64,000 bases of DNA from an uncultured Acidimicrobiia bacterium (GTDB lineage: Bacteria; Acidobacteriota; Terriglobia; Versatilivoradales; Versatilivoraceae): assembly GCA_963791795.1 (NCBI GenBank), contig CAWBTP010000003.1, positions 64,516 to 128,515 of the forward strand, given 5' to 3'. This document shows, one piece after another, positions 4,804 to 29,931 of the stretch. How positions within the stretch are numbered: the stretch's first letter is position 1; the number at the start of each line of letters is the position of its first letter. Below the pieces are notes generated by a model. It was not told the DNA's origin. It ran no database searches and saw only the letters and a program-made list of their open reading frames with translations. A program made the position numbers and the translations under genes.

Positions 4804-6778
4804 GTGATGATCCCCACGCGCGACGGCAAGCGGCTCTCGGGCGACGTGTTTCGCCCGGACGCCGAGGGACGTTTCCCGGTGATCATCATGTACCATCCGT
4901 ATCGTAAGGACGACGTCGGCCGGGGGGGCGTCGGCGAACACTTCTATTTCGCCGAGCGTGGCCTGGCATCGGTACGTTTGGACGCCCGCGGCACGGGTAC
5001 GTCGGAGGGGATCAATACTGATGAGTATCGCCTTCAAGAGCAGCTAGACGGTTACGACGCCGTCGAGTGGATGGCAGGCCAGCCCTGGTGTAATGGTAAC
5101 GTCGGAATGTACGGCGGCTCTTACAGCGGGTTTACTGCTATGCAGGTGGCTTCGCATCGCCCGCCCCATTTGAAAGCCATCGTGCCGCTCTACGTCACCG
5201 ACGACCGTTATACCGACGATTGTCACTATGACCGGGGCGGCAACATGCGCATGTACTACGACGTGGGCACCTATGGCGGAAACATGGTCGCCATGAATGC
5301 GCTGCCGCCGCTTCCGGAGCTGGCGGGAGCCAAGTGGGCTGAGACGTGGAAAGAGCGACTGGAGAATAACCAGCCGTACCTGCTGGAATGGGTGAAGCAC
5401 CAGGTGGACGGGCCTTACTGGAAGAACGGGTCGTCTGCGGCCCGACTACGATCGCGTGCAGGTTCCGGTGTTCCTGATCGGTGGCTGGCATGACGGATAC
5501 GTCAATGCCATGGTGCGCATGTACACCCACTTGAAAGGCCCCAAGAAGCTGCTGATCGGACCCTGGGTTCACACCCAGCCCCACGCGTCCGTCCCCGGGC
5601 CCCGCATCGACTGGATCAACGAAGCCTCCCGCTTTTTTGCGCATTGGCTTCGCAACGAAGACACTGGGATCATGAAGGAACCGCCGGTCTCCTTTTATAT
5701 GCAGGAGCCAACGAAACCGGATCGCAGACTCGACATCATTCCGGGCTCCTGGCGCAACGACGCGAACTTTCCCCCTTCCTCAGCCCGCGAGGTTGTCTTC
5801 CATTTGGCGGAAGGCGGCCAACTCACCAGCTCACAGGGCGCGAAACCGAAACAAGCTTTTGACGAGATCGAATACAAAAGTACTGTCGGATTGAGCAACG
5901 CCTTTTGGTCGGCCGGCAGCATCCGGTTCTATCTGGCGGACGATCAGCGAGCGGACGAAGCCTATTCCCTGGTGTATACGAGCCCGGTGTTTGAGCAGGA
6001 GACCCACTTGCTGGGTTGGCCGCAGGTGATTCTGCACGGCGCCTCGAGCGCCAAGGTGGCCTCGTTCGTTGCCAAGCTGGCCGATGTCGCCCCGGATGGC
6101 TACTCCGCGCTGATTACCGATGGCGCACTTAATGGGACCCGCCGCAAATCGTTGACGAATCCGGAGCCGATGCAGCCCGGAGAAATCTATGAGCTGAAGA
6201 TTCCAATGGCGCCCACTGGGTGGGTTATCCCAGCCGGACATCGGCTGCGGCTGGCGATCTCGAGCGCCGATTTTCCGAACTTGTGGCCAACGCCGTATCG
6301 AGCCACGAACCGTATCTACAGAGGAGGCGCTCATCTGTCCCGCGTCGTGTTACCCGTTGTGGCGAAATCCACGGTCGCCCCGCCGGAATTCCTTCCTCCG
6401 CCCAACCTCCACCGCCTGGTGACTTCGAGTGGGACGCCTCCCCTCCAGCAGGTTCTTTATGACCAGATTACCAACGCCGCTACGGTGCTGTTCCGTACCG
6501 GCGGCACTACGGTGCTGGACGACCAGCTTGGCTCCGTCATCGGGGACCATGACTTCCGTTGCACGGCGTCCGCCGATAACCCCGCCCAGGCCTCCATCGT
6601 CGGCACGCACAAGATAGCCTTCCGGCGAGAGGACGGTGACATTGAGGTGACTGCGGAAAGCACCATTCGCTCGACGGAGACCCACTTCCATGTGACGGTC
6701 AATATCCACGTAACCCGCAACGGCCTTACCTTTTTCCAGAAGCAATGGCTGCGCACCGAACCCCGGCAGCTTCTGTAA
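4804..6778 (+). CDS. CocE/NonD-family hydrolase (X-Pro dipeptidyl-peptidase S15-like), frameshifted
   Basis: ...PVIIMYHPYRKDD...ERGLASVRLDARGTGTSEG... and C-terminal beta-sandwich text. Two overlapping ORFs (4804-5493, 5456-6778) are joined by removing one C in gcggCCCgac (~5443), giving ...WKNGSSA|DYDRVQVPVFLIGGWHD. Confidence 0.7.
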
Positions 6779-15067: not shown

Positions 15068-15721
15068 TTGGCCAATGATTACAAGGTGAGAGACGCTACG
15101 AGGCCTAAACTGGAGTCAAAGAAGGGCTGGGAACTGACCGCGGACGCATTCCGTCAGCTTCTGGAGTGGCTCGATGAAGGGACGGATTCTGGCGGAGAGA
15201 AGTATCTGGAGATACGCCGAAGACTCGCATCTTTCTTTGACCGGAAGAACTGCCTTGCCCCAGATGACCTCGCCGACGAGACTTTGAACCGTGTGGCACG
15301 CAGGCTGACGGAAGAAGGTGCCATTACAAATACCACGCCTACTCATTACCTTTACATCGTCGCCAGGTTTGTCTTTCTGGAATATCTTCGTCGCAGCGAA
15401 ACCGGTGCGGTGAGTCTGGACAGTGCCTCACAGCCCAGTGCTGCGAGTGTCAGTGTGGCGCCAAATTCTGACTTGCAGGCTTCACGGGAAGAAAAAGAGA
15501 AGGTCCTGGATTGCCTTGAACATTGCTTGGACCGTCTGGAGCCGGAAAACCGCGAGCTCATTCTGCACTATTACTACGGAGAACAACGGAAAAAGATCGA
15601 GAACCGCCAGGCGCTGGCCGAACGACTGGGTCTCACGATCAACGCGCTCAGCATCCGCACCTGTCGCGTTCGGGCTCGGCTCGAAGCTTGTGTCAGCAAA
15701 TGCACCGGCCACAGAGAGTGA
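15068..15721 (+). CDS. Sigma-70 family (ECF-like) RNA polymerase sigma factor
   Basis: 217 aa with region-2-like and region-4-like HTH text (...QALAERLGLTINALSIRTCRVRARL...). Followed directly by an anti-sigma-like gene. Confidence 0.55.
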   Translation: MANDYKVRDATRPKLESKKGWELTADAFRQLLEWLDEGTDSGGEKYLEIRRRLASFFDRKNCLAPDDLADETLNRVARRLTEEGAITNTTPTHYLYIVARFVFLEYLRRSETGAVSLDSASQPSAASVSVAPNSDLQASREEKEKVLDCLEHCLDRLEPENRELILHYYYGEQRKKIENRQALAERLGLTINALSIRTCRVRARLEACVSKCTGHRE

Positions 15722-15736
15722 AATCCTTTTGCAATT

Positions 15737-16781
15737 TTGGCTTATCTTAGCAGGAGGGGTGTGTCTTCAGTGGATCCACAAACAGCTAGCGATCAACTTG
15801 TCACCCAGTATCTTCTCGGTTCTTTGTCTTCAGAAGAAACGGAACGGCTGGATGAACTGAGCTTGGCCGACGATGAATTCGCGGGACGATTGCAGGTGCT
15901 CGAGAACGAGCTGATCGACGCCTACGTCGAAGGCGAGCTTTCCGGTCAGACGCTGGAACATTTCAATTCATTCTATCTTGTCCTCGCCGAAACGACGCGA
16001 AAGGGTTAGATTCGCCCAAGCCCTCCACACAGTCTCAGAGCGCGCCGCAGTAGGACAACCGGCAGTGAACAAGCAACCAGTCGTCAAAGAGCCTCAGGTA
16101 TTGCCAAGGTCCGGCACGCCTTGGGCGTTCAGTTTGCGGGCACCGTCTGGCTCGGGACGAACTTTGCAATGGGGATTGGCCGCCGCGGCCTCGCTCCTGC
16201 TCGTGGCGGGCAGCTGGTTGATGATAGAGAATTGGCGGTTGCGCGGCCAGATGAAGCAGGCACATGCGGAACGAACGGGAGTAGAGCAGCACCAGAGGGA
16301 ATTGCTGGCACAGTTAGCGGAACAGCACTCATTTGCTTCGGCGAAGGAGAAAGAGCTTGCCGGCCTGCGCGAAAGCCTGGACCGCATCAAGCAGGAGTCA
16401 ACAGGCTTACCCTCGCAGCCACCATCAGAAGTGCCAACGATTGTCGCTTTCGCGCTGGCGGCTCAGACCCGCGGCATCTCCCAGATCGCTACCCTAGTCG
16501 TTCCTGCGGAAGCCGACTACGTAGCTGTCGAGCTTCAGCTGGAATCAGGAGGCTATCCCGGTTACCGCGCGATACTGAAAGCAGCGCCGGAGAACCAGGT
16601 CATTTGGCGGAGTGGGAGACTGAAGGCCAGAAGCAGCGGCGACCTCAAAGTCGTCGGGATTAGTCTCCGTCCCGCCCTGTTGAAATCATCTAGATATATG
16701 GTTGAAGTGTTTGGTGTTGCCGCCGACGGCAGCAGTAACGAGATCGCCGGTAGCTATGCGTTTACAGTCATCAAGCAGTAG
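15737..16781 (+). CDS. Putative anti-sigma factor (single TM helix, coiled coil), frameshifted
   Basis: ORFs 15737-16009 and 15978-16781 join as ...HFNSFYLV|SPKRRERVRFAQALHTV... after removing one C near 15990. TM helix LAAAASLLLVAGSWLMI. Confidence 0.5.
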
Positions 16782-16874: not shown

Positions 16875-17261
16875 CGGAGGCGACAAATGTGAATAGCCAT
16901 GGGTCTGAGCGCAGCCGTGCGAAGCGAAGCCCGCGGTAGCAGGACAGTTTCCAGATTCAACCCTAAAAGGGTTGAACGGCCTCAATGTTAGTCACGGTTT
17001 CCGTTTGGGTTTTCGACTCCTTCCGGGTCAGGCCTTTCTAGCGACTCTAACCCTGGGTGGCGCCTGAGTGTCGCGCCGTCCAGGGCTATCCACACTTGGT
17101 CCCCTTCCGGACGCAGACTCAAACCCACCCGCCGGCTGAGTCCGGCGACCCGATTTATGGATAAACGCACCCATAGGGAGAGGTCTTCGCCGACTAGTGG
17201 CGGGGGTTTTGACGTTAGCTCCCCTGCCCTTGGCGTATCCTCCCGCAGGACAAGGAGGCCT
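16875..17261 (+). promoter_or_regulatory. Long structured non-coding leader upstream of the TPR-CHAT gene; head motif shared with 2463-2500
   Basis: GGAGG-N9-TGAATAGCCATGGGTCTGAG at 16875-16910. Several hairpins (ccctgggtggcgcc...gcgccgtccaggg). Strong RBS caaggagg 6 nt before ATG 17262. Confidence 0.3.
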
Positions 17262-20200
17262 ATGTTTTTGTCCTTACCCTGCCTGTTCCGATCGAACTGC
17301 TGGCACGCTCGTCTGTACACCACCGTGTTGCTTTGCGTTTCTTTTGTGCTTCCGTTCGTGCCAGGCCGAAGCGCGCAGGCGGTGATGCTGCTTGCTCCAG
17401 AGCAGCAGTCATCGCGGGCCGACAAAGGCGGACGTGATTCCGATGGAGTTGGGCTGCCAACCCTGGGCCAGTCCGTCGAGCGTGAACTGGCAGGCGGGCA
17501 AAAGCACAGCTACCAGATCACACTCGCTGAAGGTCAGTACCTCAGCGTGGTTGTCGAGCAACGCGGCATCAATGTGGCGGTGCGGATGGTCGGAACCAAG
17601 GGAGAAACCATCACAGAATGGGACCGTGAACTCACTCTCCAGGGGCGGGAGAATGCCGAACTTGTGGCCGACACCGCCGGGAGCTATCGCGTCACCATTG
17701 AAGCGAAGCCGAGGATGGCTGCCTCCGGTTTCTATAGGATTCGCGTCATGGAGTTGCGAGCTGCGACCGAGACAGACCAGACGTTAGCGGAAGCACGCAA
17801 GCTGCATTGGGAGGGTCGCCGCCTTTATCTCGCCGGAAAGTACGACCAGGCTCTTCCTCTTGTAGAAAAGGCGCTGCGAATCCGAGAGAAAGCGCTTGGG
17901 CCGAACCATCTCGAAACGGCGTTGACTCTCTTGGTGCTCGGCAACATCCACCAAGACAAGATTGAATTTGGAAGGGCGGAGGAAGCCTATCAGCGTATGG
18001 TCTCCGTCATAGAAACCGCGCTGGGCCATGAACATCCGCTTCTTGCTCTAGGCCTTAACAATCTTGCTAATACCTATGAGCGAAAGTATGAATTGGAAAA
18101 ATCCGAACGGCTGCACCAGCGCGCGTTAGCAATCCGGGAGAAGGCCCTGGGGTCCGAACACCTGGATGTTGCTCAATCTTTGAGTAATCTTTCCATTGTC
18201 TACAGCAAAAAAGGAGACTCGGCCCAGGTGGTGCTGCTTCTCGAACGATCGCTGGCGATCAGGGAGAAGCTGCTGGGCCCCCAAGACATTGCCATGGCTA
18301 TACCTCTGGCCAATCTCGCACTGGAATATCGCGCCAAGGGTGATTACCCGAAGGCGGAAGCCATGCTCCAACGCGCGCTGGTGCTGAGAGAGAAGGAGTG
18401 GGGGCCTAATCATCCGGACGTCGCGATAGCGCTCGGTCAGCTTGGTGAGCTCTATCGCGACAGAGGCGACTACGTCACAGCAGAGCCGCTGTATCGGCGC
18501 GGGCTGGCCATCCGCGAGGCCGAGCTGGGGCCCGATCATCTCGACGTTTCAAAATCCCTCAACAGTCTCGGCAACCTCTCCGAGGCCGCCGGGGACCTAA
18601 TCAAGGCGGAACAACTCTATCAGCGGGCCTTGGTGATCATAGAAAAGAACCTGGGACCGGACCACCCCTATGTCAGCAGGAGTCTCATGTATCTGGCCGG
18701 CCTCTACCAGAAGAGAGGCGACGATGCCAAAGCAGAACCGCTGTACCAACGGGCGCTGGCGATCCGGGAGAAACGATTGGAGCCCGACCATCCCGACCTT
18801 GCTGAGGTGTTCCATGGTCTCGCAGAGCTTCACAGATCAAAAGGAAACTACGACCAGGCCGAGCGGCTCTATCAGCAAGCGTTGCGAATCATAGAGAAGG
18901 GGTTGGGACCGGACCATCCCAAGCTTGTTGCCATCCTGAGCGGTCTCGCGAAGCTGCATGCCGCGAAAAGAGAGTTCGGTGAGTCTGTCGCTCACCAGGC
19001 GCGAGCCATGGAAGTGATTGAGTATAACGTTGATCTGAATCTCACAGCGGGATCGGAACGGCAAAAACTGGCTTACCTTGCCACGCTATCGGATGCGTCT
19101 GATCAGGCTGTCTCCCTGCACGCTGACTTTGACCCTGACAATCTCGCTGCACGCCAACTGGCTGCTACAGCGATCCTGCGACGCAAGGGCAGGGTACAGG
19201 ATGCGATGGCAGATAGCCTTGCGGGGTTGCGCCGACGCCTTGGGCCAGAGGACCAAGCGCTGCTCGACCGGCTCAATGACACAACGTCGCAACTGGCCCA
19301 ACTCGTTCTTAACGGGCCACAGCACATGGCTGCGACCGACCATCAGAAACGAGTCAAGGACCTCCAAGAACAAAGGGAGAACATCGAAGCCCAGATCAGC
19401 CAAGGTAGCAGCGGGTCTTACGGAGCGTCCCGTCCCATCACTCTCGACGTGGTGCAATCGCTGATCCCTCGCCAAGCCGTGCTGGTTGAATTCGCAGTAT
19501 ATCGCCCGCTGGATATAAAGGCTAAGGCGGACCAGCCGATCTTCGGCGAACCACGTTATGTGGTCTACATTGTGCGCCAGCAAGGCGAGGTTCAGTGGGT
19601 GGAACTCGGCAAGGCCAAAGTTATTGATGAAGCCGTCGCCGCTCTGCGCAGTGCGCTTTGCGATCCCAAACGGCGTGACGTGCACGAACTGGCCCGCGCG
19701 GTGGACGAGAAAGTGATGCAGCCGGTGCGCAAACGGGCCGGCGACGCTTCTCAACTGCTGTTCTCGCCGGATGGCGTGCTCAATCTTCTTCCCGTCGCGG
19801 CACTTGTGGATGAAAAGGGCAGTTACCTGATCGAACGTTACTCGATCAGTTATCTGACCAGCGGCCGCGACCTGCTGCGTCTTCAGATGGCCCGGCAAAG
19901 CCGCAACGCTCCACTCGTGCTCGCAGATCCCGTATTCGGGGAACCGGACGGCGTTCAGATCTCCAAGGCGGAGATCCCAGCCAAAGGGCGATTGACGCGG
20001 GACCGCTTGCTTCGAAGTGTGACCACGGGCTCGGACCTGTCTGAGGTCTATTTTGCCCGTCTGGAGGGAACCAGTCAGGAAGCCGGCGCCATCCGGTCGC
20101 TGTTTCCGGACTCCGTGGTCATGACGGGAACGCAGGCGACGGAGTCAACCCTCAAGCAGGCGGCTGCGCCCCGGCTGGTTCACATCGCGACACATGGATT

Positions 20201-20705
20201 CTTCCTGGAAGCAAACACCCCAAAGGCGCCGCAGGAAGCAGATCGCCGCGGGATCAACCTCAATGTGAGGATCGAGAATCCGCTGTTGCGCTCTGGACTG
20301 GCGCTGGCAGGCGCCAACCTGCGGTCGGATACTAGTGACGACGGCATCTTGACAGCTATGGAGGCTGCGGGGCTGAATCTGTGGGGAACAAAACTGGTGA
20401 CGCTCTCAGCCTGTGACACCGGGGTAGGTGAAGTGAAGAACGGCGAAGGTGTCTACGGCTTGCGCCGTGCGTTCGTACTGGCCGGGGCGGAGACGCTGGT
20501 CATGAGCCTGTGGCCCGTCAGCGACCGAGGTCACGCGAGAATTAATGAGTCGATACTACGAGGGCCTGAAGCAGGGACAAGGACGCGGCGAAGCCTTGCG
20601 GCAGATGCAACTCGACATGCTCAAGCGAAAAGATCGGCAGCACCCGTTCTATTGGGCCAGTTTCATTCAGTCCGGCGAGTGGGCCAACCTGGATGGCAAA
20701 CGCTG
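17262..20705 (+). CDS. TPR-repeat protein with C-terminal CHAT (caspase-like) protease domain, frameshifted near 20520
   Basis: Signal/TM-like N-terminus. At least 8 TPR_10/12-type repeats (...LNNLANTYERKYELEKSERLHQRALAIREKALG...). CHAT His/Cys dyad context HIATHGFF...LSACDTGVG. The true C-terminus ...SDEVTRELMSRYYEGLKQG...FYWASFIQSGEW is in the +1 frame (extra C in gaCCgagg). Confidence 0.75.
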
Positions 20706-20867
20706 AGGACGCCCAGGAGCGCAGCGATTGCAGCCAAGTGTCTGCCGTGTTATTTCCTTCAGACTCCCCTAACCGTAAGGCGAAACGAGGTTCTCCCCTT
20801 CATCATTCGCTACAGATGCAACCAATCCTCCCTTAGAACAGCCCCCCAACAGCAGGTGCACCCAAAG

Positions 20868-20917
20868 ATCAGCTCCGTCCTCTGAAATGTTTTTGCGGAC
20901 GTGTCTTATCCAAGTGG
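20868..20917 (+). promoter_or_regulatory. Conserved ~50-bp cis element, copy 1 (ATCNGCTCCGYCYTCTGAAATGTTTTT-N3-GAC-N-TGTCTTATCCAAGTGG)
   Basis: Same element at 22081-22130 (45/50 identical) and 25731-25778 (more diverged). Each lies immediately 5' of a gene start. Confidence 0.5.
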
Positions 20918-20977
20918 AACCGAGAGGGCACCAAAGGTGGCCGGTTTCTTCTGGTCACCAACAAAGGAGTCAAGCCT

Positions 20978-21838
20978 ATGAAACCCAAGAACGAAAATAC
21001 TATCAACAGAGATCTTAGGGATCTGGCAGGATTGGAACGGGCAGCGTTCCCAAACGTCGTAGCGCGCAGCTTCACGGTGACGCCGGAGGCTGTGGAAACG
21101 GGTGGGTCAGTCACCGTTGCCTGGAAGGTGACCGTGCCGGATTCCGACGATATTGTTGAGCTGAAGCTGAATGGGCAATTGATTGGTGCCTTTGGTCAGA
21201 AGCGTTTTACCAACTTGACTGAAACCACTGACTTCGCACTGTCTGCCGCGACCGAGCGTGAAGAAAGGGTGCTGCGCAAGTTGAGAGTTCGCGTGGACAC
21301 ACCAGAGTGCCGGTGGGCGACCCCAGTCGAAGCCTTCGTGATCACCGCATTACTGAAGAAAGAGTTCGACGATCGCTTTAGCGGAAGCAGCCAGTTCAGT
21401 CTGCGTGGTAACGGAACTGTTGTGACTCTTGATGCCGGTGCGATCAACATCGCGGTGCCTGTGACGATCCACGTGGAGGACTGGTTCAATGCGGACATGG
21501 ACGTCGCGATCAAATTGTCGGTCACGGGAGGGGGAGGATCACCAGTCCTAGTACTGTCCCGCGGTGTTAGTCTCAATGTGAGCTGGTCTTTCTTCGAGCA
21601 TCTGCCCAGCCTGGGGTGCACGCATTTTGTCGAGAGCGGAATGTCGCAGTTGGGACAGGCGCTCATGTCGGATATTGTCAAGTCGGAACTGGTGCCTAAG
21701 GTCGCACGAGCGTTCAATGACCAGGTCGATAAGTTCATCAAAGAGGTCCAAGAAGGGGATCCGCAGCACCGGACGTACGTGTTGGCGTTCTTTGCGCTTT
21801 CGCCCGACGGCCTTAGGTTCAAGGTTTGCCCGGGGTAG
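20978..21838 (+). CDS. Hypothetical protein (286 aa, beta-rich, no signal peptide) immediately downstream of the CHAT gene
   Basis: Good RBS aaaggag. Ig-like stretch TVTPEAVETGGSVTVAWKVTVPD, then alternating-hydrophobic beta-strand text. No recognisable family. Confidence 0.5.
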   Translation: MKPKNENTINRDLRDLAGLERAAFPNVVARSFTVTPEAVETGGSVTVAWKVTVPDSDDIVELKLNGQLIGAFGQKRFTNLTETTDFALSAATEREERVLRKLRVRVDTPECRWATPVEAFVITALLKKEFDDRFSGSSQFSLRGNGTVVTLDAGAINIAVPVTIHVEDWFNADMDVAIKLSVTGGGGSPVLVLSRGVSLNVSWSFFEHLPSLGCTHFVESGMSQLGQALMSDIVKSELVPKVARAFNDQVDKFIKEVQEGDPQHRTYVLAFFALSPDGLRFKVCPG

Positions 21839-22080
21839 AAGCCGATGCTTCCTTACAACAAACCCTCCGATAGCAGGTATTCACCGTCAACCAACCGCAA
21901 CGCTCGCACGACCCTGATTATCCAGTGACAGGTCGGCTTGCGAAAGCGTAGTCCGCAGCGGTGGTGCTTGAGGACCGTCGCTTATCAGGGAAGCTTTCTC
22001 AAGGAAGCCGACTGGCAAAAAGCGCCAGCCGCTGAATCCTGGGGTGGTAGGCCGCTTACATCCAACCATTCGCCAAAAAA

Positions 22081-22130
22081 ATCTGCTCCGCCTTCTGAAA
22101 TGTTTTTCCTGACATGTCTTATCCAAGTGG
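22081..22130 (+). promoter_or_regulatory. Conserved ~50-bp cis element, copy 2
   Basis: atctgctccgccttctgaaatgtttttcctgacatgtcttatccaagtgg. Ends 14 nt before ATG 22144 of the S8 peptidase. Confidence 0.5.
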
Positions 22131-22143
22131 GTATGAGAACTTT

Positions 22144-23210
22144 ATGACACCGTTGGACCTGGTAAGACTTACAGCATTGACAGACCACACTACCGGTAGG
22201 CCCGATGTGATCATCGGGCTCATCGATGGACCTGTGGCGATGAACCATCCTGAGCTTGCTAGCGAGCATGTTCGCGAGATCGCTGGAAATGTCGAGGGGC
22301 GCCTGCACCCAGGCCAACAGCATGGCTTGCTTGCACGGCACTTTTGTGGCTGGGATTCTGTCCGCGAAGCGGGGATCGGTCGCTCCAGCGATTTGTCCCA
22401 ACTGCACCCTGCTGGTGCGACCCATCTTTGCCGAAACGACAACGGCGAACGGCGAGATGCCGAGCGCCATGCCCGAAGAACTGGCCCAGGCCATTCTCGA
22501 CTGTACTGATGAGGGCGCGCGCGTGCTGAACGTCAGCGCCGCTATAGCCCAACCTACCATAAAGAGCGAGCAGGCGTTAGAAGCGGCTCTGCATCACGCC
22601 GCCAAGCGCGGGGTCATCGTGATTGCGGCAGCGGGCAATCAGGGGACTCTTGGCAGTACAGCCATCACTGTCACCCGTGGGTGATACCGGTGGTGGGTTA
22701 TGACCTGCAGGGCAGGCCCATGAATCACTCGAACCTGGGAAGCTCAATTGGCCGGCGAGGATTGGGCGCACCCGGTGACCGAGTCACTAGCATTGGCGCC
22801 AATGGCAAGCCGCTGACCCTGGGAGGAACTAGTGCCGCCGCGCCTTTTGTGACCGGTGCCATTGCGTTGCTGTGGTCGGAATTCCCAACCGCTACAGCGA
22901 CTGAGATGAAATTTGCCGCTACCCACGCACAGACCGCAGGGCGAACACAGTCGTCCCGCCCCTGCTGGATGCCTGGGTGGCGTATCATCCTAATGATGAG
23001 GACGTAAAGACCATGCCTGAGGAAAAGACCAAAACCGAACGCCAGCCCTACCGAGTGCGCCTTCCAGGGTTCGTTAGCGACAAGGATATTGGCCTGGGCG
23101 ATGCCATCAAGCATGTGACTTACGCCCTCGGAATCCGACCCTGCGGTGGCTGCGAACGCCGGGCTGCCGCGCTCAACCGCTGGTTTGTCTTTACCGGGCG
23201 AACCAAGTGA
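22144..23210 (+). CDS. Small S8 (subtilisin-like) serine peptidase with C-terminal CxxC tail; three frameshifts
   Basis: Asp, His and Ser motifs all present but in different frames: VIIGLIDGPV (frame 1), HGTFVAGI (frame 2), GTSAAAPFVTGAIALL (frame 1). S8-type C-terminus ...PLLDAWVAY continues in frame 0 into ...IRPCGGCERRAAALNRWFVF*. Breaks near 22300, 22675 and 22945. Confidence 0.65.
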
Positions 23211-23248
23211 TCCAAGTCCGAAAAGATCCATCTTGAAGGAGGAGAACC

Positions 23249-24121
23249 ATGGACCAAGAAACGAAAGAACAATCAGCAAGCCGGGAAGAGACAAAGCGCG
23301 GTACTGCTCTGGTCACACCCTCTCAACGGGATGTCGTCGCAGCTTCGCCGGCCACAGAGACGCCCTGCCCCACTTGCGCTAGCGGTGCGGGTTCCATGCC
23401 GGTCTCTCACGTCTATGCGATTGGCCGGATCGAGGCGCGCTTCCCGCGCCTCTCGGTCGAGAAGGAATTCGCTCAGGCGGCAGGACGCGCCGAGACCGCG
23501 GGTCAGACCGATCAGCAGATGTTCTACAACGTGCTCTCCAAACCCGAGAGCCGGTATCTCGCCCGCCAGCTGTGCTGGGTGTTGATGATCCAAGGTCTCG
23601 AAACCTACATCGTGCAGCCTCGCGATCCCAGGGATTTCGATCGGTTGGTGGAGGCCATCCGCCCCCAACCAAGCCCCATGGATATCGATGTCGTCATTGG
23701 TATGCGGGGGCCTATCGCTCCGCCTGAGCTCTGCAATGGGCTCATGGTTCCGATCGTTGTATTTGACCAGATTTACTCTTTCGACCGCGATGCGCTCATC
23801 AAAGCCATCCCGCGGCCAGAGAAGATGACGGCAAAGCAGTATGAAGCGGCGGCGGGGGAAGTGTTCGATAGGATCCTGCAGATGACGGACAACGCAGGGG
23901 CGACGGATGACCACCGGACGCTGAACTACTTGGCCATGCGCTATCCTGGGATCTACGCCAAGACGGCGGAAGAATTTGCACGGGATTTTTCGCTAACTGG
24001 GGTCGATGTGCTTCCTTCGCCCTTGAGCGGCACGCGCAAGATCGTGGATGTGCATCTTTTCCTACACCAACCGCAACACCGATTTCACCGAGAAGTTTTC
24101 TGTGCGCTGCGATATGACTGA
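23249..24121 (+). CDS. Hypothetical 290-aa protein with N-terminal CPTC motif; possibly related to the PatA/PatG C-terminal DUF (low confidence)
   Basis: Strong RBS aaggaggag. ...TETPCPTCASGAG...HVYAIGRIEARFPRLSVEKEFAQ... loosely resembles the VYALGxLxYDFG...F.Q block recalled from the cyanobactin PatA/G DUF. Uninterrupted. Confidence 0.45.
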   Translation: MDQETKEQSASREETKRGTALVTPSQRDVVAASPATETPCPTCASGAGSMPVSHVYAIGRIEARFPRLSVEKEFAQAAGRAETAGQTDQQMFYNVLSKPESRYLARQLCWVLMIQGLETYIVQPRDPRDFDRLVEAIRPQPSPMDIDVVIGMRGPIAPPELCNGLMVPIVVFDQIYSFDRDALIKAIPRPEKMTAKQYEAAAGEVFDRILQMTDNAGATDDHRTLNYLAMRYPGIYAKTAEEFARDFSLTGVDVLPSPLSGTRKIVDVHLFLHQPQHRFHREVFCALRYD

Positions 24122-24272
24122 GGAGTTTCCGTTCTTGGTCACAAAGATGTCGCCGTACTATGACCGATGAACTTAACTAACCGAAAGGAGACATGAAATG
24201 AACGCTATTAATAGCGGCTAAAGCCGATCTTCGGGGCCCCAGCTTCGACCGAGACGATTAAACCTAACTAAG

Positions 24273-24300
24273 ATAGGAGATATAGGAGATTATAGGAGAT
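24273..24300 (+). repeat. Three tandem ATAGGAGAT(T) repeats (SD-like GGAG x3) immediately upstream of a small-peptide start
   Basis: ataggagat-ataggagat-tataggagat-atcaa-ATG. Seen directly. Confidence 0.6.
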
Positions 24301-24305
24301 ATCAA

Positions 24306-24530
24306 ATGAACACTATAAATATGCCTGGTTTTACCGCGGAAACCTCACTTTACAAGCACAGGACATCCTATCGCATGATGACAGGTCGCAATGGCAATGA
24401 CTCGTCCGGCGTCATTCCACAGATGGCCCCAAGCTGGATGTGTGAGTATGCGGGCGAGCAGTGTGACAATGATGATTTAATATACTGCAAGGCTTGGCGC
24501 TCTTGGAACTGTTTCCGCGGCAGCCTATAG
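24306..24530 (+). CDS. Small Cys-rich peptide (74 aa), candidate protease-processed precursor/bacteriocin-like peptide
   Basis: MNTINMPGF...MAPSWMCEYAGEQCDNDDLIYCKAWRSWNCFRGSL. Four Cys in the last 30 aa. A truncated look-alike start (ATGAACGCTATTAATAGCGGCTAA, 24198) lies upstream in the same frame. Confidence 0.4.
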   Translation: MNTINMPGFTAETSLYKHRTSYRMMTGRNGNDSSGVIPQMAPSWMCEYAGEQCDNDDLIYCKAWRSWNCFRGSL

Positions 24531-24725
24531 GACGTTGAGCAACTGCCGACCGAGAGTTGGGGGCGGGTGCACCTGCGACACCACGGTCACCGCGAGAACC
24601 GGCGACTGCGGTGATTGACTATCCGGCGCATGTCGGAATCGCATAAAAACGAGTGTTGTCGAACACGATAAAAAGGGGTCAGGCCTTGCATTCACGTATC
24701 CGGCCTAACGCTCCACCCGAGCGCG

Positions 24726-25652
24726 TTGTATCTCATGGCTACCTATGACGCATCGATCAAAAAGGCTTTGGATCCCCAGCAGGATGATCTCATCAAGCAC
24801 AAGGAGCATTGCTCGGCCGACCCCGAAAAGCTCGGGACGACCGGGCGGGCGCTCTGGCATCAGGTTCGGATCAAGCGCAACGACGACGAGTACGGGCTCT
24901 ACACGGTTAGCGAGGTGCGCCAGGAGAACCCGGACAACATCGTACGCATTGGCAAAGGCGGAAGAGAGCGACTCGGTACGAGCGACGAGTTTGACGGTAC
25001 GCTCGACTCGCAGGTGCCACATGCGACCCTCTCCGACGCGGAGGCCGAATGCAACGGCGAATTCGTCGAGCGGCTCGACGATGATGGCGCGCACACGGGG
25101 CTCATTGCCATCGCACCCCACGGCGGAGACATCGAGGCGTACACTGACCAACAAGCCGAGCGCGTCACGTCGCAGCTGGCGGGCAAGGGTGTCAGCTCGT
25201 GGCGATGCAAGGGCTGGCACCCCAAAGGAGCCTTTGACCACTGGCACATCACCTCGACCGATATCCACGAGGCGAGCTTTCCTCTTCTCAACTCGGTAAT
25301 CTCTCGGGGCTTCAGCAATGCCGTCGCCTTTCATGGGTTCGACGACGACAACATTCCGTTCGACATTCTCGTCGGCGGCCTCGCGTGCGAGGCCCTGAAG
25401 GAGAAGGTCAAGGGAGCCATCGAAGGCGTCGTCGGCTCGGATTTCACAGTGCACATAACGAAGCCGGATGAGCGGTTCGGCGGCGACGACAAGCGGAACA
25501 TCGTCAACCGGCTCACCGCTGGCGGAAGGCATGGCATCCAAATCGAGCAGAAAAAGGGGCCTCGAGAGAAATACGCGTTGCCCATCGCCGATGCAGTCGC
25601 CAACGTCTACGACTCCGAGCTCGGGCTACCCACTCAACAAAAACTGAATTAG
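24726..25652 (+). CDS. Poly-gamma-glutamate hydrolase (PghP/UPF0714)-like zinc peptidase with ~100-aa N-terminal extension
   Basis: ...LIAIAPHGGDIEAYTDQ... and ...AFHGFDD... match the H-x-x-x-x-E ... H zinc-site pattern recalled for the PghP family. Uninterrupted. Confidence 0.5.
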   Translation: MYLMATYDASIKKALDPQQDDLIKHKEHCSADPEKLGTTGRALWHQVRIKRNDDEYGLYTVSEVRQENPDNIVRIGKGGRERLGTSDEFDGTLDSQVPHATLSDAEAECNGEFVERLDDDGAHTGLIAIAPHGGDIEAYTDQQAERVTSQLAGKGVSSWRCKGWHPKGAFDHWHITSTDIHEASFPLLNSVISRGFSNAVAFHGFDDDNIPFDILVGGLACEALKEKVKGAIEGVVGSDFTVHITKPDERFGGDDKRNIVNRLTAGGRHGIQIEQKKGPREKYALPIADAVANVYDSELGLPTQQKLN

Positions 25653-25730
25653 TCAAACCCACGGATCCCGCTTCAAAGCAGCGGCTTTCGCTCGCCCTCT
25701 CGCCCCCGCATGTGACCATTCAACAAAACC

Positions 25731-25778
25731 GGCCATTCAGCCCTATGAAATGTTTTCGCGGGAATGTCTTATCGAAGT
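25731..25778 (+). promoter_or_regulatory. Conserved ~50-bp cis element, copy 3 (diverged)
   Basis: ggccattcagccctatgaaatgttttcgcgggaatgtcttatcgaagtga. About 210 nt upstream of ATG 25989. Confidence 0.45.
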
Positions 25779-25988
25779 GAAAGCGAGAAGCCTCATCAGA
25801 CGCGTTCCGCTTTCTGTGAAGCCCCGGCTCAACACACACTATCAGCTGAAAAGAAAAAGACGGTCCCTGAGAAAAGCCATTCGATCACCGAGATCTTGAT
25901 GGGGCCTTTTACCGCCGGAAGCCGCTCAAGCAAGAGCCCAGCGGAAACACTCGCCGTCCAGAAGGGCAAGGCGACTAGGGAGGACAAC

Positions 25989-27575
25989 ATGATTAGGATT
26001 CGGACAGCATGCACTCTGACTCTCGGAGTGCTGTTTGCAGCTTGCAGTTCACTGATAGTTCTCGGTCAGCTGATCGACAGGACCAAGGCGCCTAACACGG
26101 CTGGTGCGGGCATCGGCAAGTCCCTGGCTGAACAAATTGGCGTTGGGCGGGGCGATGCGATGACGCCTGACTCTTCCTGTTTCACTATCAATCGTGATCC
26201 CTTTCGAGCCATTCGGCGAGGGCGTCAGCTCTTCCAGCGCAAGTTCACTCGAGCCGACGGACACGGGCCGAACGTCGGTGACGGCAACGGCGACATGAAT
26301 GCGACGCTAGCAATCGGTGCCGGATTGGCCGACAGTTGCGCAGGTTGTCATGGACGTCCGAGCGGCTCGGCTGGCTTCGGCGGTGACGTGGCTACCCGGC
26401 CAGATAGCCGGGACGCACCTCACCTTTTCGGACTTGGACTTAAGGAAATGCTGGCAGACGAGATCACACAAGACCTGCGGGCTATCAGGGCCCAGGCTCT
26501 GCTGCAATCCAAGAGCACAGGCCAACCTGTCAGCCAGCGTCTGTTTAGCAAAGGAATACGTTATGGATGGATCACCGTGCAACCCGACGGTTCAGTGGAC
26601 ACTTCCAGGGTCCAAGGAGTAAATCCTGATCTCCGCGTCCGCCCTTTCTTTGCGCATGGCGAAACCATGTCCATTCGAGAATTCGTGGTCGGAGCCCTGC
26701 AGAATGAAATGGGTCTTCAAGCTGCGGATGCCGAGCTTGCTCAGGCGCGTGCTGGAGGCAAAGTTACCACTCTGGCCGGCATGGTGCTGGATGGATCCCT
26801 CGATGAAATTGAGGCTCCGCCCACAGCTGATCCGCTGGCTGATCCCGATGAGGACGGCGTCAAAAATGAAGCACCGGAGAGTTTGGTGGACTTTTTGGAG
26901 TTTTACCTACTCAACTACTTCAAGCCGGGAACCTACGCACAAACGGCGACTACCGAGAGGGGCCGTTATCTATTCCAGGGTGTCGGCTGTGCCAGTTGTC
27001 ATCGACCCAACCTGTTACTCAACCGGGACCGACGCGTGGCCGACGTGGAGACTGCCTACGATCCTGACCGCGGCATCTTTAACAATCTGTTTGCCACCGC
27101 CATGCCGCTGAACATTTCAGTCAATGACACCTCGGGTTTTCCTGCCCTAAGGCGACCGAAACTGGACCCTTTCCTCGTCACGAATATCTTCACGGACTTC
27201 AAGCGGCACGACGTTGGTCCGTATTTTTATGAACGGAATTACGATGGATCGCTTCGAAAACAGTTTCTGACGACGCCCTTGTGGGGAGTAGGAAGCACCG
27301 CTCCTTATGGCCATGACGGACGCAGCTTGAATCTGACTGAAGTGATATTGCGTCACGGCGGGGAAGCGCAAACCTCACGCGATCGATTTGCTAGTTTGCA
27401 GGAGGACGACCGGTTGGCTTTGCTCGCTTTCTTGAGTTCATTGGTGGTGTTTCCTCCCGACGACACCGCATCCAACTTGGACCCCGGAGATCGCAACACG
27501 CCCAACTTCCCACAGTCTGGCCACGGTAGTATCAAGTTGGGAGTTTTGTTCAACGATCCTCATGATCCAGAATAG
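25989..27575 (+). CDS. Di-heme c-type oxidoreductase/peroxidase-like protein (DUF1111 family)
   Basis: Signal peptide MIRIRTACTLTLGVLFAACSS; two CxxCH motifs (CAGCHGR, CASCHRP); ~530 aa. RBS gggagga. The track ORF start 25764 is an upstream over-extension. Confidence 0.65.
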   Translation: MIRIRTACTLTLGVLFAACSSLIVLGQLIDRTKAPNTAGAGIGKSLAEQIGVGRGDAMTPDSSCFTINRDPFRAIRRGRQLFQRKFTRADGHGPNVGDGNGDMNATLAIGAGLADSCAGCHGRPSGSAGFGGDVATRPDSRDAPHLFGLGLKEMLADEITQDLRAIRAQALLQSKSTGQPVSQRLFSKGIRYGWITVQPDGSVDTSRVQGVNPDLRVRPFFAHGETMSIREFVVGALQNEMGLQAADAELAQARAGGKVTTLAGMVLDGSLDEIEAPPTADPLADPDEDGVKNEAPESLVDFLEFYLLNYFKPGTYAQTATTERGRYLFQGVGCASCHRPNLLLNRDRRVADVETAYDPDRGIFNNLFATAMPLNISVNDTSGFPALRRPKLDPFLVTNIFTDFKRHDVGPYFYERNYDGSLRKQFLTTPLWGVGSTAPYGHDGRSLNLTEVILRHGGEAQTSRDRFASLQEDDRLALLAFLSSLVVFPPDDTASNLDPGDRNTPNFPQSGHGSIKLGVLFNDPHDPE

Positions 27576-29349: not shown

Positions 29350-29931
29350 ATGGCTTCACTCCCACGCGATGAAGTGACGCAACTGCTGCTGGCCTGGAGG
29401 CAGGGAGAGCCATTGGCTTTGGAGGAACTGATCCCAGTCGTCCACAAGGAGTTGCGAAGGCTCGCCCACCGCTACATGAGTGGAGAACGGGAAGGACACA
29501 CTCTGCAGACCACAGCTCTGGTGAATGAGGCTTATCTGCGCCTCGTGGACTCCAGCCAGGTGCAGTGGCAGAACCGCGCCCATTTTTTTGCGACGGCTGC
29601 CCAACTGATGCGTCGAGTTCTGGTGGACTTTGCCCGGACGCGCAACTACCAGAAACGAGGCGGCGAGGTCCTAAAGGTTGAATTCGACGAAGCCTGGATG
29701 GGGTCCACTGGGCGGGGGAGTGATCTGGTGGTGGCTCTCGATGATGCGCTGCAGGAACTGGCGAAGTTCGACGCCAGGAAGAGCCAGGTGGTGGAGATGC
29801 GGTTCTTTGGGGGCTTGAGCGCCGAAGAAACGGCTGAGGTGCTGAACGTGTCGGAGGATACCGTCTTAAGGGACTGGAAACTGGCGAAGACTTGGCTCTT
29901 GCGGGAACTCAAGAAGGACAACGAGCGATGA
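29350..29931 (+). CDS. ECF sigma factor of the Ser/Thr-kinase-associated type (TIGR02999-like)
   Basis: MASLPRDEVTQLLLAWRQGEPLALEELIPVVHKELRRLAHRYM... is the characteristic N-terminus of this ECF group. Region 4 ...LSAEETAEVLNVSEDTVLRDWKLAKTWL.... Stop overlaps the kinase start. Confidence 0.75.
   Translation: MASLPRDEVTQLLLAWRQGEPLALEELIPVVHKELRRLAHRYMSGEREGHTLQTTALVNEAYLRLVDSSQVQWQNRAHFFATAAQLMRRVLVDFARTRNYQKRGGEVLKVEFDEAWMGSTGRGSDLVVALDDALQELAKFDARKSQVVEMRFFGGLSAEETAEVLNVSEDTVLRDWKLAKTWLLRELKKDNER

What the first reader, a model, noticed from the sequence alone, without database searches (positions are those of the whole stretch)
17157..27575. TPR-CHAT protease / S8 subtilase / DUF / Cys-peptide / PghP-hydrolase locus: candidate undescribed proteolytic-cascade, peptide-maturation or conflict system
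A ~1150-aa TPR-sensor + CHAT caspase-like protease is followed in the same direction by a 286-aa beta-rich unknown protein, a minimal S8 subtilase ending in a CxxC tail, a 290-aa protein starting with CPTC, a 74-aa peptide with four C-terminal Cys, a PghP-type zinc gamma-glutamyl peptidase homolog and a di-heme DUF1111 oxidoreductase. Three of the transcription units carry the same ~50-bp upstream element, so they are likely co-regulated. Protease + repeat-sensor + small substrate is the logic of bacterial gasdermin/CHAT and RiPP (LanP/PatA-type) systems, but no known pore-former, LanB/C or cyclodehydratase is present. I did not recognise this combination as a described system.
Basis: partly seen in the sequence, partly recalled or inferred. 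Interest (0 to 1): 0.78.

Follow-up and report, generated by a model that had tools for sequence, protein, structure and literature searches.

The report
Split cyanobactin-type peptide maturation cassette
The seven genes are not one system, but three of them plus an overlooked small gene form a widespread and apparently undescribed operon: a cyanobactin-type leader protease, a small CxxC protein and a stand-alone "PatG DUF" protein, sitting in front of highly variable cysteine-rich peptides that all share one leader.

Summary
The genes are present in the stated order, but the description needs correcting. The "S8 ending in a CxxC tail" is two genes, an S8 protease and a 65-aa CGGC protein. In this window they are broken by three 1-nt indels and joined by a 4-nt indel. 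A 97.4%-identical contig has both genes intact. The 290-aa ORF is a stand-alone PatG_D+PatG_C (cyanobactin DUF) protein.

In 84 loci anchored on that protein, from more than 10 phyla, S8 co-occurs in 77 and the CGGC gene in 66. Leader-bearing small ORFs lie directly downstream in about 68. CHAT occurs in 2 loci (not in the operon), the 286-aa gene in 0, PghP in 2 and DUF1111 in 1.

The 74-aa ORF is one of more than 140 peptides with a conserved leader (M-N-x-PGFTAEASLY…Y…(V/I)xP(Q/A)). Their cores are hypervariable and 11% Cys, and 130 of 134 have an even Cys count.

The S8 is closest to the PatA/PagA leader proteases. The 286-aa protein models as Ig plus a BPI/TULIP-like fold, not gasdermin.

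The repeated upstream element is real. There are three copies plus a weaker fourth, also found in relatives. It links 286, the S8 operon and DUF1111 only in this lineage.

Verdict: the seven-gene cascade is not supported. A new variant of leader-peptide (RiPP/bacteriocin-like) maturation is supported. No Pfam or NCBIfam family covers the peptides, and no paper was found.

The parts
15086..15721 (+). Weak ECF-type sigma-like gene (neighbour, not part of the cassette)
   Evidence: The L088 ortholog has Sigma70_r2 and r4_2 hits at E 0.01 and 0.002, below the Pfam cut-offs. Coordinates were mapped from L088.
15761..16781 (+). zf-HC2 anti-sigma-like gene (neighbour)
   Evidence: zf-HC2 E 0.0011, below the cut-off. 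Mapping.
15719..15746 (+). Fourth, weaker copy of the promoter-like element
   Evidence: TGAAATCCTTTTGCAATTTTGGCTTATC has 3 mismatches to the 20 specified bases. By my own calculation, about 0.004 such matches are expected by chance in the window.
17262..20706 (+). Signal peptide + PPC-like + TPR_12 repeats + CHAT protease. A neighbour, not part of the conserved cassette. There is a 1-nt indel at ~20525.
   Evidence: Pfam. The frames show the true C-terminus '...FIQSGEWANLDGKR*'. An intact 1147-aa ortholog is present in L088. The His (HIATHGFF) and Cys (LSACDTG) motifs are present.
20864..20917 (+). Promoter-like repeat, copy 1 (core 20883-20910), upstream of the 286-aa gene
   Evidence: The same element lies upstream of the 79%-identical 286-aa homolog in L085.
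20978..21838 (+). 286-aa protein: Ig-like beta-sandwich plus a BPI/TULIP-like domain. An independent neighbour.
22077..22130 (+). Promoter-like repeat, copy 2 (core 22096-22123), upstream of the S8 operon
   Evidence: Conserved in L007 at position 118.
22144..23007 (+). PatA-type S8 leader protease, without signal peptide. Broken here by 1-nt indels at 22293, 22670 and 22947.
   Evidence: Frame reconstruction. PF00082. TIGR03895 partial match E 3e-27. PDB best hits are PagA 4h6w at E 2.6e-29 and PatA 3zxx/4h6v at ~6e-25, against ~1e-15 for subtilisins. Intact 300-aa version in L088. Asp, His, Asn and Ser motifs are present.
23013..23210 (+). 65-aa CGGC small protein (LPGF…GLGD…PCGGC…LNRW), a separate gene in intact relatives
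23249..24170 (+). Stand-alone PatG_D + PatG_C (cyanobactin DUF) protein, ~306 aa, with a 1-nt insertion near 24052
   Evidence: Pfam E 2.6e-33 and 6e-23. More than 7,600 homologs. 4uvq E 0.002. The C-terminus is recovered in another frame.
24306..24530 (+). 74-aa precursor peptide: leader MNTINMPGFTAETSLYKHRTSYR…GVIPQ plus a 35-aa, 4-Cys core
   Evidence: An identical peptide occurs in L088 and L089. The core is unique to this lineage.
24735..25652 (+). PghP-family (PF05908) hydrolase. A lineage-specific passenger or accessory of the cassette.
   Evidence: Pfam. Found after the peptide genes only in the close relatives L001, L007 and L088.
25727..25780 (+). Promoter-like repeat, copy 3 (core 25746-25773), upstream of DUF1111
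   Evidence: Conserved in L007 at position 4611.
25989..27575 (+). Di-haem DHOR/DUF1111 protein with signal peptide (the ORF is open from 25764). A neighbour.
   Evidence: Pfam. Syntenic only in L007 and L088.

Best explanation
The region is a mosaic, and only one part of it is a conserved system.

**The conserved unit.** It is an operon, S8 - CGGC - DUF - peptide(s), at window 22144-24530.
- The S8 is a cytoplasmic PatA-type leader peptidase.
- The DUF protein is the cyanobactin PatA/PatG C-terminal domain encoded as a separate polypeptide.
- The CGGC protein is a conserved 65-aa partner.
- The downstream ORFs are precursor peptides. Each has a ~35-40-aa leader (PGF(T/N)AE(A/S)SL(Y)…Y…) ending in (V/I)-x-P-(Q/A), followed by a hypervariable Cys-rich core.

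**Proposed mechanism.** The DUF protein, possibly with the CGGC protein, docks the PGF leader. The S8 then cuts after the P-(Q/A) junction. The released cores, which have paired Cys, become disulfide-rich peptides. I propose that they act outside the cell as antagonistic or signalling molecules. The core segment is swapped between otherwise near-identical cassettes.

**What is shown and what is inferred.**
- Shown: composition, gene order, homologies, leader/core architecture and cargo swapping.
- Inferred: the cleavage site, leader binding by the DUF protein, disulfide formation, export and biological role.

**The other genes.** CHAT-TPR, the 286-aa Ig+TULIP protein and DUF1111 are neighbours. 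In this lineage the 286-aa gene, the S8 operon and DUF1111, plus an anti-sigma-like gene, carry the same promoter-like element and so may share a regulator. PghP travels with the cassette only in close relatives.
For: **Synteny in 84 loci anchored on the DUF protein**
- S8 is present in 77 loci, and 5 of the 7 misses are at contig ends.
- The CGGC gene is present in 66.
- The order S8-CGGC-DUF on one strand holds in 64 of 64.
- Leader ORFs lie directly downstream in about 68.
- No other gene family recurs.

**Reverse test.** 120 metagenomic loci were fetched through the leader DNA motif. Of 86 evaluable loci, 54 have the DUF gene upstream within 4 kb. Most of the rest are tandem leader-ORF arrays on short contigs.

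**Protease type.** PDB best hits are the N-terminal cyanobactin proteases PagA and PatA (E 1e-29 to 1e-24). PatG macrocyclases align only from residue 67 (E 1e-11).

**DUF protein.** Pfam PatG_D and PatG_C both score above their gathering cut-offs.

**Leader versus core**
- Identity is 50% in the leader against 7% in the core.
- Cys content is 0.36% against 11.4%.
- The Cys count is even in 130 of 134 peptides.
- The junction motif lies ~31 residues after the Phe.

**Cargo swapping.** L007 shares 90% nucleotide identity over 22076-24203 and 24725-27575 but carries different peptides in between.

**Intactness.** An intact copy of every gene except the DUF protein's C-terminus is present in the 97.4%-identical L088.

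**From general knowledge.** Subtilin-type class I lanthipeptide leaders also end in P-Q and are cut by S8 LanP proteases. Cytoplasmic S8 leader peptidases are known, for example ElxP (PMC10885120).
Against: - No cleavage, binding, modification or export has been demonstrated.
- No transporter, immunity gene or modifying enzyme is conserved next to the cassette. All three core proteins lack signal peptides, so it is unexplained how disulfide-rich products, some 200-300 aa long, would leave the cell.
- The CGGC gene is absent from about a fifth of cassettes, including the cyanobacterial and Methanoperedens ones.
- In this window the S8 and DUF genes carry frameshifts. The DUF frameshift is shared by three assemblies, so this particular copy could be decaying.
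- The absence of prior description rests on 9 text searches of an incomplete library and on Pfam and NCBIfam.
Confidence: 0.6

Rival explanations
1. All seven genes form one proteolytic-cascade or conflict system: the TPR-CHAT protein senses and cleaves, S8 is a second protease, and the 286-aa or 74-aa proteins are effectors or substrates, in the manner of a gasdermin system.
For: The genes are adjacent and on the same strand. Promoter-like elements are shared by the 286-aa gene, the S8 operon and DUF1111. The arrangement is kept in at least three assemblies of the same population.
Against: - CHAT is near the cassette in only 2 of 84 loci, and in both it is separated by opposite-strand genes.
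- The 286-aa gene is never near S8 or DUF, and its homologs have no protease neighbours.
- L001 carries the cassette at 89-95% nucleotide identity but with a different upstream flank.
- The CHAT protein has a signal peptide while S8, CGGC and DUF do not, so they probably work in different compartments.
- The CHAT gene has no copy of the shared element.
- PADLOC gives no system-level hit.
Confidence: 0.04
2. An extended, lineage-specific module. In this clade the cassette has recruited the PghP-family zinc hydrolase, and perhaps DUF1111, as an extra tailoring, trimming or self-protection step for its peptides.
For: The PF05908 gene directly follows the peptide genes in the window, L088, L007 and L001. 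In L001 it lies between peptide genes and a second DUF copy. The block 22076-27575 is shared with L007 at 90% identity, and its boundaries coincide with the promoter element and the DUF1111 stop codon.
Against: PF05908 is found in only 2 of 80 genome loci, all close relatives, so shared ancestry explains the pattern equally well. DUF1111 has its own promoter-like element and a signal peptide. No functional link has been tested.
Confidence: 0.25
3. The cores are not secreted toxins or signals. They are intracellular metal- or redox-active Cys peptides, such as Cu/Zn/Fe buffers or thiol-disulfide relays. The CxxC motifs of the CGGC protein, the S8 (CPNC) and the DUF tail (CPTC) would take part in this.
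For: - There is no exporter or signal peptide anywhere in the cassette.
- Many carriers are metal-hungry nitrifiers, methanotrophs and anammox bacteria.
- The CGGC motif sits at a helix N-cap, as in redox-active CxxC proteins.
- One homolog is fused to TlpA-like redoxin domains (P0280).
- Thioredoxin genes lie beside the cassette in Nitrospira.
Against: - Extreme core diversity, tandem paralogous arrays and cargo swapping are the pattern of antagonistic or diversifying peptides. They are not the pattern of a conserved metal-handling function.
- A 97% even Cys count fits disulfide pairs.
- Large cargos resemble extracellular Cys-rich repeat proteins.
- The taxon list is also rich in ordinary soil heterotrophs.
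Confidence: 0.12
4. The cassette in this window is a decaying pseudogene remnant and does nothing in this organism.
For: There are three frameshifts in S8, one in the DUF gene, one in CHAT, and a 4-nt indel fusing S8 to the CGGC gene. The DUF frameshift is shared with L088 and L089.
Against: - L088 has an intact CHAT, S8 and CGGC gene at 97.4% identity.
- The two contigs differ by 105 indels in 20 kb spread over all genes, and L088 has other genes broken. This points to assembly error.
- Downstream of each indel the correct frame stays open and conserved.
- A 96%-identical homolog (P0066) has the normal DUF C-terminus.
Confidence: 0.12

Closest known systems
Cyanobactin pathway N-terminal protease PatA/PagA (S8 protease + C-terminal DUF), Prochloron/Oscillatoria pat and pag clusters
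   Same: The S8 domain is the closest solved relative (4h6w, 3zxx, 4h6v). The same PatG_D/PatG_C DUF is present. Both are cytoplasmic and act on a leader-bearing precursor. Neither has a transporter in the cluster (the latter for cyanobactins is from general knowledge).
   Different: - The protease and DUF are separate polypeptides here, with an extra CGGC gene between them.
- There is no PatG macrocyclase, no PatD YcaO heterocyclase, no PatF prenyltransferase and no PatB/PatC.
- The precursors lack the G(L/V)E(A/P)S and AYDG recognition sequences and have a different leader.
- The cores are 25-200 aa and Cys-rich, not 6-20-aa cassettes.
- The system is found in more than 10 phyla, mostly outside cyanobacteria.
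Class I lanthipeptide leader peptidases (LanP: NisP, cytoplasmic ElxP; subtilin-type leaders)
   Same: A dedicated S8 protease removes an N-terminal leader that has a conserved Phe-containing box. By recollection, the lanthipeptide box is FNLD and subtilin-type leaders end in P-Q at positions -2/-1; here the equivalents are PGFxAE and P-(Q/A). A cytoplasmic variant exists (ElxP, PMC10885120).
   Different: No LanB, LanC or other dehydratase/cyclase is present in any locus. The S8 is closer to PatA than to subtilisins. The DUF and CGGC partners are unknown in lanthipeptide clusters.
Prochlorosin / Nif11- and NHLP-leader precursor families (one conserved leader, many hypervariable cores)
   Same: The combinatorial logic is shared: a conserved leader, tandem paralogous precursor genes and unrelated cores handled by one machinery.
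   Different: The leader is a different family and has no Pfam or NCBIfam match. Processing is by an S8 rather than a C39 peptidase-ABC exporter. No modifying enzyme has been identified.
Bacterial gasdermin-protease systems (bGSDM with adjacent CHAT/caspase-like or subtilase proteases)
   Same: A repeat-containing CHAT protease lies next to a ~280-aa beta-rich protein, with an S8 protease nearby.
   Different: The 286-aa protein models as Ig plus a BPI/TULIP-like fold. Its homologs are not protease-linked. The CHAT protein carries a signal peptide. PADLOC gives no hit.

Membership tests
Cyanobactin biosynthetic system (PatA-G type) | PatA-type S8 N-terminal protease domain | tested here: met
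   PDB best hits are PagA 4h6w at E 2.6e-29 and PatA 3zxx/4h6v at ~6e-25. The catalytic Asp, His, Asn and Ser motifs are present.
Cyanobactin biosynthetic system (PatA-G type) | PatA/PatG C-terminal DUF (PatG_D + PatG_C) | tested here: met
   PF18047 scores 115 bits and PF18065 81.5 bits, both above the gathering cut-offs. However, the domain is a separate 306-aa protein, not fused to the protease.
Cyanobactin biosynthetic system (PatA-G type) | Full-length match to TIGR03895 (PatA/PatG family maturation protease) at the curated cut-off | tested here: not met
   95.5 bits for the S8 part and 29.8 bits for the DUF part, against a cut-off of 421.
Cyanobactin biosynthetic system (PatA-G type) | PatG-type macrocyclase (second S8 with capping-helix insert) | tested here: not met
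   There is only one S8 per cassette. The Asp-to-His spacing is about 37 residues. PatG chains 4aks and 4h6x align only from residue 67 at E ~1e-11. The cores have no conserved C-terminal recognition motif.
Cyanobactin biosynthetic system (PatA-G type) | PatE-like precursor with RSII G(L/V)E(A/P)S and RSIII AYDG flanking short cores | tested here: not met
   The leader consensus is MNxPGFTAEASLY…(V/I)xP(Q/A). No NCBIfam or Pfam precursor family matches.
Cyanobactin biosynthetic system (PatA-G type) | YcaO heterocyclase (PatD) and/or prenyltransferase (PatF) in the cluster | tested here: not met
   Clustering all ORFs of 83 loci gives no recurrent family other than S8, CGGC, DUF and the peptides.
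Class I lanthipeptide cluster | LanB dehydratase and LanC cyclase next to LanP and LanA | tested here: not met
   Neither appears in the window annotation or among the recurrent neighbours.
Bacterial gasdermin-protease system | Gasdermin fold of the ~280-aa protein | tested here: not met
Bacterial gasdermin-protease system | Conserved adjacency of effector and protease | tested here: not met
   The 286-aa homologs in L085, L086 and L087 have no protease neighbour.
Known anti-phage defence systems (PADLOC-DB 2.0) | Match of the components to system-specific models | tested here: not met
   Only generic 'TPR', 'subtilase' and weak IetS S8-domain hits were found. Nothing matched for the 286-aa, CGGC, DUF, peptide, PghP or DHOR proteins.
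Leader-peptide (RiPP/bacteriocin-type) maturation system, generic | Precursors with a conserved leader and variable core, encoded next to a dedicated leader protease | tested here: met
Leader-peptide (RiPP/bacteriocin-type) maturation system, generic | Demonstrated cleavage and/or post-translational modification of the core | not testable with these tools
   This requires expression and mass spectrometry.

The most novel reading that the evidence does not exclude
The S8-CGGC-DUF operon defines a previously unrecognised superfamily of ribosomal peptides, the 'PGF-leader' peptides. They are spread by horizontal transfer across more than 10 bacterial phyla and at least one archaeon. In this reading, the long-enigmatic cyanobactin DUF is the leader-recognition subunit, and the small CxxC protein helps to oxidise or chaperone hypervariable disulfide-rich cores. 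This would be a bacterial counterpart of conotoxin-style diversification. It might include a cytoplasmic disulfide-forming step or a still unknown export route that also handles cargo of 200-300 aa.
Probability: 0.3. Interest if true: 0.78.

Novelty: new variant of a known kind. Interest (0 to 1): 0.6.

Why it matters
**An entry point to an old question.** The C-terminal DUF of PatA/PatG has had a crystal structure since 2014 (4UVQ). To my knowledge it still has no assigned function. Here the same domain is a stand-alone protein. It is 59-93% identical to the window's copy across phyla and is always paired with a PatA-type protease and a single leader family. Its role can therefore be tested directly by binding, cleavage and knockout experiments. 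Cultured carriers are available: Nitrosospira multiformis, Nitrosomonas communis, Methylobacter luteus and Edaphobacter modestus DSM 18101.

**A large, unannotated peptide pool.**
- The DUF protein has more than 7,600 clusters at 90% identity.
- None of the peptides is covered by Pfam or NCBIfam.
- This is a sizeable set of small cysteine-rich peptides of unknown activity. They occur in nitrifiers, methanotrophs, anammox bacteria and Acidobacteriota, organisms for which little is known about peptide-mediated interactions.

**A caution for neighbourhood-based inference.** A plausible seven-gene "system" broke down once synteny was checked.

Tried and rejected
- **Motif search with the wrong spacer.** A search with N9 gave nothing. 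It was corrected to N8.
- **Exact-sequence look-ups.** The window's 290-aa and 286-aa products are not on record.
- **Word-indexed search with the 74-aa peptide.** It found only 8 relatives. The family was defined instead from the fetched loci and a DNA-pattern scan.
- **Viral contigs.** No relative of the DUF protein was found.
- **AFDB50 fold library.** It was unavailable.
- **CGGC protein as a leader mimic or degenerate precursor.** HHalign supports only a 9-column hPGFxx(D/E) match (P 0.004, probability 8%). This is kept as an observation, not a claim.
- **Neighbouring ECF-like sigma as driver of the shared element.**
  - The sigma/anti-sigma pair near the L085 homolog is not orthologous.
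  - The spacing between the two motif halves is shorter than I recall for classical ECF promoters.
  - The question is left open.
- **Natural CGGC-DUF fusions for modelling.** P0066 and P0273 are frameshift artefacts.
- **Terminator and sigma-70 scans.** Results were at chance level.
- **CHAT association.** It was rejected after inspecting L008 and L067.
- **Literature.** Nine searches on PatG DUF, Pfam accessions, leader and CGGC sequence strings, and non-cyanobacterial cyanobactins found no description. Two reviews or papers were checked.

Full report
**1. What is in the window**

ORF listing and three-frame translation confirm a same-strand run of genes from ~17.2 to 27.6 kb. Pfam and NCBIfam give the following:
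- TPR_12 repeats plus CHAT (E 6.5e-67).
- A 286-aa ORF with no family.
- S8 peptidase homology.
- A 290-aa ORF that is PatG_D (E 2.6e-33) plus PatG_C (E 6e-23).
- A 74-aa ORF with no family.
- PF05908 Gamma_PGA_hydro (E 6.7e-17).
- A di-haem DHOR/DUF1111 protein.

- The CHAT ORF leaves its frame near 20525. The real C-terminus (…FYWASFIQSGEWANLDGKR*) lies in another frame.
- The S8 gene is spread over three frames.
- The "CxxC tail" is, in intact relatives, a separate 65-71-aa gene between S8 and the PatG-DUF gene.
- The PatG-DUF protein's last ~35 codons are also shifted.

A 97.4%-identical contig, L088 (ENA ERZ25039469), has intact versions: CHAT of 1147 aa, S8 of 300 aa and the CGGC protein of 65 aa. 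The window's breaks correspond to single-base indels at 20525, 22293, 22670 and 22947, plus a 4-nt indel at 22988. The two contigs differ by 105 indels in 20 kb, and L088 has other genes broken. I therefore read these as long-read assembly errors, though real decay is not excluded.

**2. The repeated upstream element**

The repeat finder gives three copies of a 54-nt element at 20864, 22077 and 25727. The core is TGAAATGTTTT-N8-TGTCTTATC.
- It occurs exactly three times in the window, and a fourth copy with 3 mismatches lies at 15719.
- It lies upstream of the 286-aa gene, the S8 operon, DUF1111 and an anti-sigma-like gene, but not upstream of CHAT.
- It is conserved at the equivalent places in L007, and upstream of a 79%-identical 286-aa homolog in an otherwise unrelated context, L085.
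- It is absent upstream of the cassette in L001 and in all other loci.

It is therefore a lineage-specific regulatory signal, not part of the cassette. It looks like an alternative-sigma promoter. A weak ECF-like sigma and a zf-HC2 gene lie just upstream of CHAT. I could not tie that pair to the element.

**3. Synteny test**

The PatG-DUF protein has more than 7,600 homologs, typically ~306 aa and stand-alone. I fetched 80 genome loci and 4 further contigs. The taxa include:
- Acidobacteriota, Gemmataceae, Planctomycetaceae and Verrucomicrobia.
- Nitrospira, Nitrosomonas, Nitrosospira, Nitrotoga, Methylobacter and Brocadia.
- Chloroflexota, Actinomycetota, Cyanobacteria and Spirochaetia.
- A Methanoperedens archaeon.

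BLAST of the window's proteins against all ORFs of these loci, plus all-against-all clustering, gave:

| Gene | Loci with the gene (of 84) | Note |
|---|---|---|
| S8 | 77 | 5 of the 7 misses are at contig starts |
| CGGC | 66 | order S8-CGGC-DUF on one strand in 64 of 64 |
| CHAT | 2 | separated from the cassette by opposite-strand genes in L008 and L067 |
| 286-aa | 0 | |
| PghP | 2 | L001 and L007, close relatives |
| DUF1111 | 1 | L007 |

- No other family recurs, and in particular no transporter or modifying enzyme.
- The 286-aa protein has only 29 homologs. Three of its other contexts contain no protease, S8 or DUF.
S8, CGGC, DUF and the small ORF form a tight unit.

**4. The peptides**

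In about 68 loci, the ORFs immediately downstream of the DUF gene on the same strand share an N-terminal motif. There are 141 unique sequences.
- **Leader consensus:** M-N-(M/I)-P-G-F-(T/N/S)-A-E-(A/S)-S-L-(Y)-K-T-x-x-x-Y. About 31 residues after the Phe comes a junction, (V/I/L/M)-x-P-(Q/A).
- **Identity:** pairwise identity is 50% in the leader and 7% in the core.
- **Cys content:** 0.36% in the leader and 11.4% in the core.
- **Cys parity:** 130 of 134 peptides have an even number of Cys.
- **Core size:** cores range from 25 to ~200 aa. Some form recurrent subfamilies, for example …GAYWRCRANGGSDLICRFFGGLPPFTIGGLL in 23 loci.
- **Copy number:** loci carry 1-7 such genes.
- **Annotation:** none matches Pfam or NCBIfam.

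The window's 74-aa ORF (leader …GVIPQ, 35-aa 4-Cys core) is a typical member, and its core is unique to its lineage.

Of 86 contigs with enough upstream sequence, 54 have the DUF gene upstream within 4 kb. Most of the remainder are tandem arrays of leader ORFs on short contigs.

Between the window and L007, the flanks 22076-24203 and 24725-27575 are 90% identical, but the peptide segment is replaced. This is cargo swapping.

**5. The three core proteins**

- **S8.** It has no signal peptide. Its best solved relatives are the N-terminal cyanobactin proteases PagA and PatA (E 2.6e-29 to 6e-25), against ~1e-15 for subtilisins. PatG macrocyclases align only from residue 67. It is therefore a PatA-type leader protease without the macrocyclase insert.
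- **DUF protein.** It matches 4UVQ weakly by sequence and both Pfam models strongly.
  - Its N-terminal tail carries CxxC or CxC in 62 of 70 proteins.
  - In 38 of 66, this is preceded by a junction-like xP(Q/S). The shuffled expectation is 0.2, but the proteins are homologous, so this reflects conservation rather than independent events.
- **CGGC protein.** It has 952 representative clusters and no family.
  - The AF2 model has pLDDT 76.8, with CGGC at a helix N-cap. It has no structural neighbour.
  - It contains a conserved LPGF…(D/E) that resembles the leader's PGF box, but only over 9 columns.
  - One homolog is embedded among TlpA-like redoxin domains.
  - It is missing from about a fifth of cassettes.

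**6. The other genes**

- **CHAT.** It has a signal peptide and intact His and Cys motifs, and it is an ordinary member of a very common architecture.
- **PADLOC.** It returns only generic hits.

**7. Interpretation**

The best-supported reading is a cyanobactin-related but distinct leader-peptide maturation cassette:
- The DUF protein, with or without the CGGC protein, recognises the PGF leader.
- The PatA-type S8 cuts at xP(Q/A).
- Paired-Cys cores are released as diverse, probably disulfide-bonded peptides.

Only the architecture and homologies are shown. Cleavage site, binding, oxidation, export and role are inferred. The main weakness is the lack of any exporter or immunity gene. The pat cluster, as far as I recall, also encodes no dedicated transporter.

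The alternatives are scored under the rival explanations: an extended lineage-specific module with PghP, intracellular metal or redox peptides, and a decaying copy. The seven-gene cascade is rejected.

**8. Novelty**

Nine literature searches and two targeted readings found no description of stand-alone PatG-DUF operons, of the leader or of the CGGC protein. Pfam (2025), NCBIfam (June 2026) and PADLOC have no models for the peptides or the CGGC protein.

The logic of a leader, a dedicated S8 and variable cores is known from cyanobactins, lanthipeptides and prochlorosins. I therefore rate this a new variant of a known kind rather than categorically new. The library is incomplete, so prior description elsewhere cannot be excluded.

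Noticed in passing
window 15086-16781 and 15719-15746: A weak ECF-like sigma gene and a zf-HC2 anti-sigma-like gene lie directly upstream of CHAT. A fourth, degenerate copy of the promoter-like element sits at their junction.
   Followed up: partly
window 29350-31193; L002 3608-6228 and 15364-18985: A PF07638-type ECF sigma followed by Ser/Thr kinase gene fragments lies downstream of the region. Similar ECF plus Pkinase pairs flank the cassette on both sides in the Gemmataceae genome (L002). This may be a recurrent regulatory neighbourhood; the kinase cluster appeared in 4 loci.
   Followed up: partly
window 14304-34500 vs L088: There are 105 indels in a 20-kb alignment at 97.4% identity, and broken ORFs occur in both contigs. 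Many other ORF pairs in the window also look split (for example 21-1136/922-2367 and 4215-4907/4804-5493). This suggests error-prone long-read assembly.
   Followed up: partly
DUF homologs in L001-L084 (window 23249-23400): The low-complexity N-terminal tail of the stand-alone DUF protein often reads …(I/V)(A/S/T)PQ…C(P/A/G)xC G…. It thus looks like a leader-core junction followed by a Cys pair (38 of 66 proteins). It could be a pseudo-substrate or an autoprocessing site for the S8.
   Followed up: partly
L003 13941-20606 (Nitrospira): A conserved PGF-leader peptide (…GAYLRCRANGGSDLICRFFAGLPPFTIGGILR) is duplicated. Each copy sits next to an NTP_transf_5 gene and a DUF6065 gene, with a PqqD-like gene nearby. 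This may be a second, modification-linked branch of the family.
   Followed up: no
L001 13573-16720: A second DUF copy without its own S8 follows the PghP gene and is itself followed by five more leader ORFs, making seven in the locus.
   Followed up: no
P0280 (562 aa): The CGGC domain is embedded between TlpA-like redoxin domains in a membrane-anchored protein. Thioredoxin genes also lie just upstream of the S8 in L003 and L004. This hints at thiol-disulfide chemistry.
   Followed up: no
L002 12134-12784; L081 7689-8609: Some PGF-leader proteins are large (216 and 306 aa) with 34 Cys in repeat patterns typical of extracellular Cys-rich modules. The leader is therefore not restricted to small peptides.
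   Followed up: no
L069 (Candidatus Methanoperedens contig) 3192-5769: An archaeal MAG contig carries S8, DUF (62% identical to the Gemmataceae protein) and two leader peptides, without a CGGC gene. This suggests inter-domain transfer, if the binning is correct.
   Followed up: no
window 18099-18929: There is a 126-nt periodic DNA repeat (6 copies, 60-71% identity). It is simply the TPR_12 repeat array of the CHAT protein.
   Followed up: yes
L007 (labelled Acidimicrobiia) vs window: The block from the S8 promoter element to the DUF1111 stop codon is 90% identical at nucleotide level to a contig binned as Acidimicrobiia. The closest S8-DUF relative (84% nucleotide identity, L006) is labelled Pyrinomonadaceae. 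This means either recent transfer of the block or mis-binning.
   Followed up: no
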